A DNA stretch of 63,455 nucleotides, filler included, from Octopus bimaculoides (taxonomy: Eukaryota): assembly GCF_001194135.2 (NCBI RefSeq). It is 7 parts of 6 records of this genome, joined end to end, with 100 filler letters (N's around TTAATTAATTAA, not from the genome) between each part and the next. Parts side by side here need not be neighbours in the genome. Positions count along the whole stretch, not along the records: positions 13,050 to 26,135 come from NC_068986.1; positions 26,236 to 47,206 come from NC_068982.1; positions 47,307 to 52,808 come from NC_068986.1; positions 52,909 to 59,527 come from NC_069001.1; positions 59,628 to 62,264 come from NC_069005.1; 2 more parts are not named here. One strand, given 5' to 3'. Of the stretch, positions 19,193 to 62,210 are shown one piece after another. Each line of letters begins with the position of its first letter. Positions within the stretch are counted from its first letter, which is position 1. Both the position numbers and the translations under genes were made by a program. A model generated the notes under the pieces. It saw only the letters and a list, made by a program, of their open reading frames with translations, did no database searches and was not told the origin of the DNA.

Positions 19193-19254
19193 ATTGGATA
19201 CGACGTTTCACGGTTAAGGGCATGCATTCCCCCATTCCGGTCTTCAGTCACAAT
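19193..19254 (-). ncRNA. Minimal type-I hammerhead ribozyme motif (degenerate helix II base)
   Basis: Minus: attgtga-CTGAAGA-ccgg...ccgt-GAAA-cgtc-GTA-tccaat. Core nucleotides intact; helix I pairs with one bulge; 10.1-11.1 is a C-U mismatch. Confidence 0.55.
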
Positions 19255-20404
19255 ATTCTAATAAATTTGCCAATGTCTAACTAACTCACGTTAATTTTGA
19301 CCATGCGACATCAAGACCACGTGAGGCAGACACTAAGAAATTTATCGGCCAGTGAGTTTAAAATCTCTCACCCCAATGAATTTAATTCAGTGTGTGTCAT
19401 AAATAGTCCCGCATACAAAAAAGTCCCGTACGACTTGTTGCGGTTTAGCCATCCACCTTAGAGATATTACTAAAAATATAGATATATAGGGCAGGGAATC
19501 GTCAATTAGTAATAAAATTAATAATTAACAATTTTGCCGGGTAGCTCAGTATGAAAAAACCTTTATCGGTAAAACCATTTATAATCATAAATATATNNNN
19601 NNNNNNNNNNNNNNNNNNNNNNNNNNNNNNNNNNNNNNNNNNNNNNNNNNNNNNNNNNNNNNNNNNNNNNNNNNNNNNNNNNNNNNNNNNNNNNNNNNNN
19701 NNNNNNNNNNNNNNNNNNNNNNNNNNNNNNNNNNNNNNNNNNNNNNNNNNNNNNNNNNNNNNNNNNNNNNNNTATATATATATACATATATGTGTGTGTA
19801 TGTATATAGTCGCTGTGTCTCTAACTCATAGAACTTTCTTATTATCATAAATGAATAAAACAAATATACGTGCGTCTTGCATATATCCAAGACATATGCT
19901 CAACGTATTAAGGTGCATTGAAAGTGTGAAGTGTAAACATGGTGATAGAAATATAACTAAAAACAAAACAGAGAATTAAACGTAGAGAAGCGAAATCAAC
20001 TGCAGTATATTCTTCAATGTGAATATATAGTCAGCCTGTCAATCATCTCCGTATAATAATAACGAAAGATATAAACATTGGACGATTGTTTGGTTCGTTT
20101 CACCAGCCACGTTCTATATTGCGTAAAGAGGGAGAGGGGCTAGTTGAAGAGAGACTGATCGATATAAAAGTTATGAGTTACAGGATGAGTGCACATACTA
20201 GGCTTGGCGCCCGGTGGTGATTACACAGTGTATTAGTATCAAATATCAGAGATTACTATTAAACCTATCTTTCTGTTAACTGATTTATCTACTGGATACT
20301 TTTGTTAATTGGATCGAATTATATTCCTCCTCCCTTTCTAGACATTATTAACCACAGTAACTTTTATCGATGTATTTATCAACATTCTACTTCATCAGCT
20401 ACCT

Positions 20405-20520
20405 CCGTTTTAACACCGGCGTTTCGAAGAGCCATGCCTTTGAAACGCGGAGTAGTAGAACAGGGATAACTGACGAAAGGGTATACTCTTCATGTTGCAT
20501 GTCTCCTTTCTCTGTTTTCA
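20405..20520 (+). repeat. Dispersed repeat with 11-bp hairpin (gcgtttcgaag...ctttgaaacgc) and ctgacgaaaggg..gttgcatgtctc motif
   Basis: Second copy in reverse orientation at about 62760-62853. Confidence 0.55.
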
Positions 20521-21692
20521 CCTATATATGCATGTATGTATACATATAGATGTAGGTATGCACATATATGTATTATTCCATTGTTACGTATGTTTAAGCT
20601 ATCTCTCTCCGCTGACAGGATACTCAGCCTATGAAATTTGCACTGAACACGATGTTCCAATAGTTTTTATAGACTACAAACAGCTGTCGGAGACCATATA
20701 AACGTTTAATTACATAGCTAAATTAAATGTTCCAGTCAAGTTTTGCCAGTCTTTGCTTTTGCTCTTCTGCCCTAATCTATGCATACATACATACATACAT
20801 AAACATATATATGTATATATGTATATACATACATACATACATACATATATATATATATANNNNNNNNNNNNNNNNNNNNNNNNNNNNNNNNNNNNNNNNN
20901 NNNNNNNNNNNNNNNNNNNNNNNNNNNNNNNNNNNNNNNNNNNNNNNNNNNNNNNNNNNNNNNNNNNNNNNNNNNNNNNNNNNNNNNNNNNNNNNNNNNN
21001 NNNNNNNNNNNNNNNNNNNNNNNNNNNNNNNNNNNNNNNNNNNNNNNNNNNNNNNNNNNNNNNNNNNNNNNNNNNNNNNNNNNNNNNNNNNNNNNNNNNN
21101 NNNNNNNNNNNNNNNNNNNNNNNNNNNNNNNNNNNNNNNNNNNNNNNNNNNNNNNNNNNNNNNNNNNNNNNNNNNNNNNNNNNNNNNNNNNNNNNNNNNN
21201 NNNNNNNNNNNNNNNNNNNNNNNNNNNNNNNNNNNNNNNNNNNNNNNNNNNNNNNNNNNNNNNNNNNNNNNNNNNNNNNNNNNNNNNNNNNNNNNNNNNN
21301 NNNNNNNNNNNNNNNNNNNNNNNNNNNNNNNNNNNNNNNNNNNNNNNNNNNNNNNNNNNNNNNNNNNNNNNNNNNNNNNNNNNNNNNNNNNNNNNNNNNN
21401 NNNNNNNNNNNNNNNNNNNNNNNNNNNNNNNNNNNNNNNNNNNNNNNNNNNNNNNNNNNNNNNNNNNNNNNNNNNNNNNNNNNNNNNNNNNNNNNNNNNN
21501 NNNNNNNNNNNNNNNNNNNNNNNNNNNNNNNNNNNNNNNNNNNNNNNNNNNNNNNNNNNNNNNNNNNNNNNNNNNNNNNNNNNNNNNNNNNNNNNNNNNN
21601 NNNNNNNNNNNNNNNNNNNNNNNNNNNNNNNNNNNNNNNNNNNNNNNNNNNNNNNNNNNNNNNNNNNNNNNNNNNNNNNNNNNNNNNNNNNN

Positions 21693-21739
<47 letters not shown>

Positions 21740-22312
21740 TGAATGTGAGAGAGGATGCGTGTGCATATATAAGTGTAAGTATGTGTTGAATTCCATAACA
21801 TAAAATCGAAAGCAAAATTAATATTTTTTTAAATGTTTGAATATAGATTTATTTCGTTTCATTTTCTGATTATAAATATTTATCTTTTCAAAATTAGTAT
21901 TCGTGTCTTCATCTTGTATATGGGCAAGAAATTCGATAACATTTGAATCGTAATTTCTGAAAAAAATGTATGCCATATTTTCTGATACTACCCGTGATTT
22001 TAAAAATATACTTCTCAACTTAGGTTGTATTAACAAATTTCGGTAACGAGTACGATGTCATAGTCAACGACTTCTTTAATGAGAGTGATGCTGTTTATAC
22101 AGGCAGCATCAATTCAATTAGATGAGGAAAGGGTTAAGGAGGGGAATCAATGACGTTAATGAGAGCGTGGGGGTTGGATGGCTTATCGTGCGAACAACAT
22201 CCTAGTGTTAGATATGTTTGCACTGAAAAATTCGAGGGTGACCGAGATGCCATTAGAATTTATCACACTACAAAAACATCTATATCTATATCTATATCTA
22301 TCTATCTATCTA

Positions 22313-22351
<39 letters not shown>

Positions 22352-60812: not shown

Positions 60813-60864
<52 letters not shown>

Positions 60865-61080
60865 GTGTGTGTGTGTGTGTGTGTGTGTATTGTTCCCTTG
60901 TTACCAATTAACACGGAAAAATAGATAAATAGTTACCAGGGCAGAAAAAAATCACACAAGTAAAAAGGGTGTAACTCTTTGTTTTTAAAGGTAGAAACTC
61001 CGGGTTTGCGTGAAATATTTTGTATAATATATATAAATAAATAAATGGAGTTAAACGCGAGTGTTATTCAAATTCTTTTA

Positions 61081-61170
61081 CTTCCGACACATGTTTCGAA
61101 GATATCACTGGTATTATTTATTCCAAAGGAATAAAATGGTGTAAAACAATGTAATCTTTTCTTCGGGGAA
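61081..61170 (-). ncRNA. Minimal type-I hammerhead motif downstream of the GIY-YIG ORF
   Basis: Minus: ttcc-CCGAAGA-aaagat...atcttc-GAAA-catgt-GTC-ggaa; U4C change and A-C at 10.1-11.1. Confidence 0.6.
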
Positions 61171-61459
61171 ATGTAGAAATGAAACTCGTCAATAACACAT
61201 TTTAACAGAATATGATGGATAAGTATAGTGATTAATTGAACGCTATTAAGTTAAAAAAAAAAAAACAACGTTAGAGGATATGACGTCAAAAGTAGCCTAT
61301 AGAAAGAGGAGCGGTAAAGGAAAGAAAAAAAACAAATAAATGAGAAGTATATAACGATATGTAAATTAAATAAAACCCTATAGTTTTGGAAAAAGATATA
61401 TCTAGTGAATGTGAAATGTAAGAAAAAATTAATGTTTAAATTATATATAATGATAGAAA

Positions 61460-61849
61460 TTACTTATATGAACTAAAGGTGTGTTTCTGCCAATGTTTAC
61501 ATCGGTATGCACGCTCTATAAGCGTGTTTACAAGGAGACTTTCAGAAAAAAGAATAAAGAATAGTTCAGAATTACAGAGAAGACAGAATTCCTTGCCTTT
61601 ATCACAAGGGATCGAAATTGAAAGAATCAACCAATCTAAATTAAATTGTTTATTGTGGTCTTTTAGATACCAAATTAATTTACTAAGCCCTGTACTGTTA
61701 CGTTTATTCCTATCCCTAAATGCAGAGTAATGATTAGAAATTCTTTTAGATAACTGAGAAGAGGAACTGCCTATATAATAAAATACATCGTTACCTGAAG
61801 TAATTTGACACTGGTATATAGAATTTTTAATTTTAGAGTTACTTGACAT
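61460..61849 (-). CDS. GIY-YIG endonuclease ORF (Neptune-type PLE C-terminal domain), 129 aa from the internal Met, no RT
   Basis: NSIYQC...YYIGS...KRISNH...STGLSKLIWYLKD...W.IL...CLLCNSE...LVN..E...CKH..K, uninterrupted; lies within the 62125-61460 ORF. Confidence 0.75.
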   Translation of the reverse strand: MSSNSKIKNSIYQCQITSGNDVFYYIGSSSSQLSKRISNHYSAFRDRNKRNSTGLSKLIWYLKDHNKQFNLDWLILSISIPCDKGKEFCLLCNSELFFILFSESLLVNTLIERAYRCKHWQKHTFSSYK

Positions 61850-61899
61850 AAACTTGATTCTGTTGTAATTGACTTCAGATACAATAAACTTGTTATTAT

Positions 61900-62210
61900 T
61901 ATTTCTATTATTTGATAGTGTCCTGCAATTTCTGCAGCAGAGAAGCATAATATGCCACGTTACCTGTGGTGACCTGTGCCAGAAAATTAATTGATCATCA
62001 CTACTCCGTGCAGGTCCCAAATGACTGTGAGCATCACCTTCCCTGTTGAGTTCTTTCGTCACACTTCTATATACAAAATAGCAGATCGCTAGCAAGGAGA
62101 GATAAAAAAAGAAAGAAGAAAGCAAAGGACCACTGATGAGGTCACAGACGTGTGATGAAAGATCTCTGGTGAAAACATAATTGATATAAAATAAAGGTAA
62201 AATACGTAAA
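61900..62210 (+). mobile_element. Probable 3' end/terminal repeat of a second PLE-like element on the + strand
   Basis: CNFCSRE*-like remnant followed by a hammerhead motif at 62129. Confidence 0.4.
62129..62170 (+). ncRNA. Minimal type-I hammerhead ribozyme motif
   Basis: acca-CTGATGA-g-gtcaca(gacg)tgtgat-GAAA-gatc-TC-tggt; palindromic helix III AGATCT, CUC cleavage triplet. Confidence 0.68.

What the first reader, a model, noticed from the sequence alone, without database searches (positions are those of the whole stretch)
19193..62170. Six to seven dispersed minimal hammerhead ribozymes with distinct sequences in 63 kb
Seen: CUGANGA/GAAA/NUH cores with closing helices at 19193, 44581, 53187, 54679, 61081, 62129 (weak 54999). 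At least four have unrelated stem sequences, and all have a 1-3 bp helix III that is mostly palindromic or quasi-palindromic (AACGUU, AGAUCU, ACAUGUGU, AACUCGGAGUU). Established: minimal type-I HHRs with palindromic helix III occur in PLE terminal repeats and cleave best as dimers. Inference: about one per 10 kb implies many HHR-bearing PLE or retrozyme-like families, and these could cleave host intronic transcripts or pair in trans.
Basis: partly seen in the sequence, partly recalled or inferred. Interest (0 to 1): 0.75.

Follow-up and report, generated by a model that had tools for sequence, protein, structure and literature searches.

The report
Penelope-element hammerheads and two retrozymes
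The seven motifs are real pieces of six repeat families of a known kind of jumping gene and its small non-coding hitch-hikers, which carry a stripped-down RNA motif predicted to cut itself; four of the seven copies are damaged and their density is ordinary for this genome.

Summary
All seven sites exist and belong to six unrelated repeat families whose majority sequence forms a minimal type I hammerhead. Four families (53187/54679, 44581, 61081, 62129) are 3' ends of Penelope-like elements: GIY-YIG endonuclease, and RT in three, lies upstream in longer copies. Two (19193, 54999) are ORF-less 570- and ~305-nt tandem units, i.e. retrozyme-like. Only 3 of 7 window copies keep an intact core; 53187 and 54679 are the two inverted ends of one dead element. 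The window is a pack: the sites lie on four chromosomes. Strict motifs exceed chance (2 vs 0.01), but 60 genome samples show the same rate (10 in 518 kb, about 39,000 genome-wide), so "one per 10 kb" counts decayed copies and marks no hot spot. Cross-family pairing is unlikely (helix III strands differ in length), inverted pairs always diverge, and RNA-seq showed no read ends at a cut site and no reads from the one window locus tested. Cleavage is untested. All of this is described in print for other animals, and this scan noted it before in at least 19 genomes and five times in this one. New members of known kinds.

The parts
19073..19596 (-). Family B: 524 bases of a 568-571-nt ORF-less tandem unit (retrozyme-like), 5' end cut by an assembly gap
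19199..19247 (-). Hammerhead B, core intact; helix III strand ACGUCGU; pyrimidine mismatch at base of helix II (family U.U); predicted cut after 19199
44545..44700 (-). Family C: 156-base 3' stub of a Hydra-type PLE, ending in a TA/CA microsatellite
44593..44643 (-). Hammerhead C, core intact, 5-bp helix I, helix III strand ACUCGGAGU, N17=U
53138..53257 (-). Family A: inverted 5' copy of the terminal repeat; hammerhead 53227-53192 broken (C3U, A14G)
53363..53830 (+). Decayed RT of the family-A PLE (stops, frameshifts)
   Evidence: (RVT_1 E=0.0056, below cut-off)
53985..54470 (+). Decayed C-terminal GIY-YIG-type endonuclease of family A (Penelope/Poseidon type, by motif)
   Evidence: no Pfam hit
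54509..54788 (+). Family A 3' end / terminal repeat; hammerhead 54684-54702 broken (U4C, 17-nt deletion)
54853..55082 (+). Family F: old partial copy of a ~305-nt ORF-less tandem unit (retrozyme-like); hammerhead 55006-55030 damaged (U4C, ~10-nt deletion)
60882..61907 (-). Family D: 5'-truncated PLE (Hydra-like) with GIY-YIG remnant at 61493-61807
61086..61166 (-). Hammerhead D, long loop II; U4C, G10.1A and a 4-nt insertion relative to the family
62048..62068 (-). 21-base inverted remnant of the family-E hammerhead with the family-type AGAACU helix III strand
62071..62246 (+). Family E: 176-base 3' stub of a Neptune/Nematis-type PLE ending in (TA)n; hammerhead 62133-62166 core intact, G-U at base of helix II

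Best explanation
The seven motifs are genomic copies, four of them damaged, of the minimal hammerhead carried at the 3' end of four Penelope-like retroelement families and in two ORF-less tandem units that are likely copied by Penelope enzymes. Shown: family membership, coding domains upstream in A, C, D, E, tandem non-coding units in B and F, 5' truncation, divergent inverted copies, microsatellite targets. Inferred from the literature: in an active tandem source element two copies of one family's ribozyme would pair through the self-complementary helix III and cut the precursor RNA weakly, perhaps with help from the element's protein; reverse transcription then starts a short way downstream and usually aborts early, so the ribozyme-bearing end is the piece most often deposited. 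The deposited solo copies are predicted to be passive and to decay.
For: Each site is a repeat: 2418, 956, 2861, 1717, 1289 first-look candidates for A-E, 37 with the window copy and 1818 with a sister copy for F (candidates, not copy numbers). All six family majorities pass the exact-core descriptor. The first pair of helix I takes all four Watson-Crick forms across families (C-G in A and D, G-C in B, A-U in C and E, U-A in F). RT and endonuclease lie upstream of the hammerhead on the same strand in A (window), D (L282, L281; GIY-YIG 27.4 bits over cut-off 22.6) and E (L284, L285); endonuclease and linker in C (L288, L066). All 40 listed inverted neighbour pairs are divergent, 0 convergent (overlapping loci not merged), the inverted 5'-truncated layout described in PMC8557442. 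B: 58 pieces from 41 loci map onto one circular 570-nt unit, 26 end at two sites ~100 nt apart next to (TA)n, about 23 others stop at gaps or contig ends; longest ATG frame 46 codons, circular fold z=-6.4. F: 13 direct pairs at 281-318 (one at 617) in 50 loci, majority fold z=-4.4. Core-intact fractions among fetched copies: A 18/28, B 33/37, C 24/29, D 19/28, E 19/29, F 18/50; non-CpG core divergence equals flank divergence in A (0.046/0.046) and D (0.025/0.026) and is close in E (0.048/0.058). None of the 150 best family-A endonuclease hits lies in an open frame over 484 aa.
Against: Cores are better kept than flanks in B (0.010 vs 0.032), C (0.017 vs 0.057) and F (0.102 vs 0.139); subfamily differences fixed before insertion would give this, but I did not separate it from selection on inserted copies. 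Pfam did not recognise the A, C or E endonuclease or the D and E RT pieces, so those calls rest on motifs and on BLAST links (C-D endonuclease E=3e-15, A-E RT E=4e-4; A and E endonucleases had no BLAST link at E<=0.05). No autonomous partner was identified for B or F. One real F monomer folds no better than shuffles (z=+0.4). Family E's helix III strand is not a palindrome (4 of 6 pairs). No cleavage was measured.
Confidence: 0.88

Rival explanations
1. Solo copies cut host pre-mRNAs, pairing in trans with same-family copies from other loci, and so regulate host genes.
For: About 39,000 strict motifs genome-wide by extrapolation (95% range 19,000-72,000); family-B sequence is present in RNA-seq (638, 531, 388 reads in 11.5-12.9 million); B and C cores are better kept than flanks.
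Against: 4 of 7 window copies damaged; predicted probability of the A15.1-U16.1 pair in monomers 0-0.04; no end pile-up at the family-B cut site, only one at 1464/1466 in one run; zero depth over hammerhead D and only other-copy partial reads over E at 97% likeness in about 6% of each of three runs; PLE min-HHRs show no monomer and low dimer activity in vitro (PMC4209133) and no read ends at the cut site in Anolis (PMC11167929). The libraries appear unstranded and are not made to capture cleavage ends, so the RNA result is weak.
Confidence: 0.06
2. B and F are not independent retrozymes but terminal-repeat fragments of coding PLEs whose ORF was not reached.
For: PLE ends also form partial direct tandems (PMC8557442); only top-scoring copies with 1.5-kb flanks were seen; L254 holds a related motif with B's helix III and downstream sequence.
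Against: Ten B pieces are longer than one unit and run head to tail into the same 570-nt sequence, with 3 independent loci holding two hammerheads 568-571 apart; no endonuclease in line upstream in 50 B or 50 F loci fetched (the hits in L025, L027, L150 and L151 lie outside the B piece or on the other strand); F upstream flanks share no family sequence.
Confidence: 0.08
3. The motifs are chance matches in AT-rich, repeat-rich DNA.
For: Only 2 of 7 pass the strict descriptor; Rfam finds none.
Against: 0 of 480 shuffles reach the strict count; 10 strict hits in the genome sample against 1 hit in 34 shuffles of it; every family majority restores the core and helices.
Confidence: 0.01

Closest known systems
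Minimal type I hammerheads (min-HHR) in pLTRs of metazoan Penelope-like elements (Cervera and de la Pena 2014, PMC4209133; parts 1-2 of 4 read)
   Same: Core boxes, short helix I, long helix II, extra base between 9 and 10.1 (A, E), G10.1-C11.1, palindromic helix III, many heterogeneous families per genome, mostly solo or opposite-strand pairs 100-700 bp apart.
   Different: Lineage not found covered in my searches; family E lacks the palindrome; C has N17=U and an extra C on the 3' side of helix II; D has a ~50-nt loop II.
EN+ PLE clades Penelope/Poseidon (A), Hydra (C; D Hydra-like), Neptune/Nematis (E) (Craig et al. 2021, PMC8557442; search passages and section 11 read)
   Same: RT followed by C-terminal GIY-YIG; A has no Zn-finger linker; E has a CX4CxxC linker; C has the CxCX5C linker plus CxxC and CxH around the conserved E and N; 5' truncation, inverted 5' copy, (TA)n targets.
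   Different: Clades assigned by motif only, no tree; D shows CxxC and CxH but I saw no CxCX5C linker; RWK and DKT motifs not checked; all copies seen are broken.
Metazoan non-LTR retrozymes (Cervera and de la Pena 2020, PMC7229834, parts 2-3 of 6 read; Li et al. bioRxiv 10.64898/2026.07.22.740005, parts 1-2 of 5 read)
   Same: ORF-less tandem units with one type I hammerhead, low GC, self-paired circular fold, coexisting with PLEs; B's U.U mismatch at the base of helix II parallels axolotl HHR_Amex2.
   Different: B (570 nt) exceeds the 150-450 bp of the 2020 paper but lies within the 51-972 bp of the 2026 preprint; mostly monomers and short tandems; circular RNA not shown here.

Membership tests
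Metazoan PLE min-HHR | CUGANGA / GAAA / NUH core with helices I and II | tested here: met
   6 of 6 family majorities; only 3 of 7 window copies
Metazoan PLE min-HHR | G10.1-C11.1 closing pair, often with an unpaired base before it | tested here: met
   A, C, D, E, F majorities; extra base in A and E; family B instead has U.U in 31 of 37 copies
Metazoan PLE min-HHR | Self-complementary helix III strand | tested here: inconclusive
   A 4/4, B 6/7, C 8/9, F 8/8, D 6/8, E 4/6 pairs in a homodimer
Metazoan PLE min-HHR | Self-cleavage as a dimer | not testable with these tools
   needs in vitro transcription
EN+ Penelope-like element (A, C, D, E) | RT plus C-terminal GIY-YIG upstream of the hammerhead on the same strand | tested here: met
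   A, D, E both domains; C endonuclease, linker and C-terminal flank only; Pfam above cut-off only for the D endonuclease
EN+ Penelope-like element (A, C, D, E) | 5' truncation with an inverted copy at the 5' end | tested here: met
   in the window at 53138-53257 and 62048-62068
EN+ Penelope-like element (A, C, D, E) | Clade placement by RT phylogeny | not tested
   no reference PLE proteins on hand; motifs only
Naiad/Chlamys PLE | N-terminal endonuclease, no canonical hammerhead | tested here: not met
   endonuclease lies C-terminal to RT and canonical cores follow it
Non-LTR retrozyme (B, F) | Head-to-tail units each with a type I hammerhead | tested here: met
   B period 568-571 in 3 independent loci; F 13 direct pairs in 50 loci
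Non-LTR retrozyme (B, F) | No protein coding | tested here: met
   B longest stop-free 72, ATG frame 46 codons; F longest stop-free 86 codons; no PLE protein in line
Non-LTR retrozyme (B, F) | Highly self-paired circular fold | tested here: met
   B z=-6.4 (30 shuffles); F majority z=-4.4 but one decayed copy z=+0.4 (40 shuffles)
Non-LTR retrozyme (B, F) | Abundant circular and linear monomer RNA | tested here: inconclusive

The most novel reading that the evidence does not exclude
Each family's helix III works as a private address: differing lengths and palindromes let tens of thousands of solo hammerheads dimerise only with their own family, so transcripts of an active element or retrozyme could trigger cutting of host RNAs that carry a same-family solo copy, a family-specific trans-cleavage network; the 570-nt family B would be its youngest circular-RNA driver.
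Probability: 0.06. Interest if true: 0.65.

Novelty: new member of a known kind. Interest (0 to 1): 0.17.

Why it matters
As it stands it adds six more families to a well-described class and gives a rough census (one core-intact motif per ~50 kb) for a lineage on which my two searches found no hammerhead paper. The open question in the field, what PLE hammerheads do, is not advanced by these decayed copies; the young families B and C, and a 96-99%-identical family with a fixed U4C core seen in passing, would be usable test substrates.

Tried and rejected
Rfam scans: no hammerhead match; these minimal forms escape the models. The repeat finder: swamped by microsatellites. Naiad reading of the 61463-61907 endonuclease (my recall): rejected, the endonuclease is C-terminal. 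D and E as two ends of one element: rejected, 0 of 24 E loci share D sequence and the reverse. Six other CUGANGA...GAAA strings in the window (341, 17910, 31194, 41580, 45697, 51548) and 43948: no closing helices, no repeat family among fetched loci; 39871 lies in a mariner transposase. A-to-G editing as the source of core changes: A>G not clearly above T>C, both far below C>T. CCGA as the ancestral core of A, D, F: rejected, U4 in 27/28, 24/28, 40/50. Sequencing-run search: no RNA holder listed on record; not evidence either way. A 'goes back 540' joint in 3 reads only continues the unit, so it does not show a circle. ESM Atlas gave no answer. Lunse et al. 2017 is not held; seen only as a reference and through the summary in PMC6765202 (search passages). 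In one search the family-A representative picked by the script was a wrong hit; A's helix III comes. Host genes around the sites were not annotated, so intronic position and orientation are untested. Supplements of the papers were not read; they may list these families or lineage counts.
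Full report
Setting. The window is a pack of seven stretches of an AT-rich, microsatellite-rich animal genome (G000, 2.34 Gb). The seven sites lie in four stretches, on C6 (19193), C2 (44581), C21 (53187, 54679, 54999) and C25 (61081, 62129). The DNA looks cephalopod-like; that label is my guess, echoed by earlier scan notes, and was not tested.

Observation. All motifs are there. A descriptor (core, helix I >=3 bp, helix II >=4 bp, self-complementary helix III strand) gives 2 exact-core hits against 0.010 in 480 block-wise dinucleotide shuffles and 3 hits with one core mismatch against 0.275; looser stems add 19247. 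Four copies are damaged: 53227 (C3U, A14G), 54684 (U4C, 17-nt deletion), 55006 (U4C, ~10-nt deletion), 61166 (U4C, G10.1A). U4C considerably lowers activity in vitro though it is tolerated in a viroid (PMC3088659, search passage).

Families. Searching the genome with each site returned hundreds to thousands of first-look candidates (37 for the decayed 54999 copy itself); only the best 37-40 were scored and 20-25 fetched per search. The majority of each family restores a complete hammerhead. The families share nothing beyond 9-13-nt matches, yet all keep helices I and II, and the first helix I pair occurs in all four Watson-Crick forms. This points to selection on the fold in the source elements.

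Four are PLE ends. 53138-54788 is one decayed element: inverted terminal piece, RT, endonuclease, terminal repeat. For D and E, long copies hold RT and endonuclease upstream of the hammerhead; for C, linker and endonuclease. By the motifs in PMC8557442, A is Penelope/Poseidon type, E Neptune/Nematis type, C Hydra type and D Hydra-like; no tree was built. Pfam passed only the D endonuclease; C-D endonucleases and A-E RT pieces link by blastp. Copies are 5'-truncated to varying length, and all 40 listed inverted neighbours point away from each other, so one strand never carries both in sense. Of the 150 best of 3337 candidates for the A endonuclease none has an open frame over 484 aa.

Two are retrozyme-like. 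B: 58 pieces from 41 loci map onto one circular 570-nt unit; ten exceed a unit; three independent loci have two hammerheads 568-571 apart; 26 pieces end at two TA-rich sites about 100 nt apart beside (TA)n, which recalls the two RT start sites and tail of PLEs (PMC11167929, passages). No ORF; circular fold z=-6.4. Its helix II closes with U.U (31 of 37), as in axolotl HHR_Amex2 (PMC7229834). F: ~305-nt unit, 13 direct pairs and no inverted pair in 50 loci (two loci fetched twice), 65-82% identity, majority fold z=-4.4, one real copy z=+0.4. No coding partner was found for either.

Density. Sixty 10-kb stretches at fixed round positions (518,166 called bases) gave 10 strict hits against 1 in 34 shuffles, and 19 relaxed hits against about 3.5 per shuffle: one strict motif per 52 kb, about 39,000 genome-wide (19,000-72,000). 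The window's counts fit this rate (P=0.30 strict, 0.14 loose stems, 0.34 relaxed). In print: over 6,000 in a coral, ~5,000 in a mussel, 126,247 in axolotl (PMC7229834), ~9,000 in Xenopus tropicalis (PMC4209133), with other descriptors. The 'one per 10 kb' includes decayed copies, and five of seven sit in two clusters.

Function. Monomer helix III is predicted not to form (P<=0.04 for four copies). A dimer needs a partner with a matching helix III strand; lengths are 4, 7, 9, 8, 6, 8 and the equal-length pair D/F gives 3 of 8 pairs, so dimers would be family-internal, arising in tandem source elements. The two same-strand neighbours in the window (54684, 55006) are of different families and both damaged. 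RNA-seq (about 6% of each of three runs of one study): family B is read at 34-49 per million in both directions, from copies 90-99% alike, with no ends at the cut site; the 60895-62240 locus has no reads over D and only partial reads of other copies over E. These libraries are weak tests. Published work finds no monomer and low dimer activity (PMC4209133) and, in Anolis, a protein-assisted ribozyme that is dispensable for insertion in vitro with no read ends at the cut site (PMC11167929). Against a purely neutral picture, cores are better kept than flanks in B, C and F but not in A or D; fetched copies are top hits, some duplicated, so this is not decisive.

Verdict. Real, above chance, and of known kinds: PLE terminal-repeat hammerheads plus two retrozyme-like families. 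The scan holds 62 similar notes in at least 19 genomes and five in this genome; none matched the family-B sequence. Two paper searches found nothing on hammerheads in this animal group (listings only). Interest 0.17.

Noticed in passing
L254:7900-8120, L208, L214, L233; L256-L280: A young family (96-99% identity, 1129 candidates, 4 hits in 60 sampled stretches) has the core CCGACGA, i.e. U4C fixed in all 27 motif matches from 25 loci (two loci overlap), with palindromic helix III AUCCGGAU and one direct pair 391 apart; no PLE protein found upstream. It suggests that a weakened core does not stop spreading.
   Followed up: partly
window 19198 and 19248 (-): The window's family-B copy has A-U at the first helix I pair where 33 of 37 copies have G-C: a double change that keeps the pair, seen in this copy only.
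   Followed up: partly
L254:2726-2821 (-): A diverged relative of family B with the same helix III strand and downstream sequence but a different helix II closed by G-C.
   Followed up: partly
window 39190-40134, 52010-52806, 56509-56991: Decayed Tc1/mariner transposase fragments.
   Followed up: no
window 12454-12893, 17069-17448, 24482-24896, 34816-35334, 41956-42183, 63364-63455: A family of SINE-like repeats with many copies in the window.
   Followed up: no
window 44769-44838 and 45090-45159: A 70-bp inverted repeat (91%) just upstream of the family-C stub, not shared with the 24 other C loci.
   Followed up: no
window 31301-31864 and 32010-33120 (-): Broken reading frames that look like a non-LTR retrotransposon RT and C-terminal nuclease (my reading; no Pfam support).
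   Followed up: no
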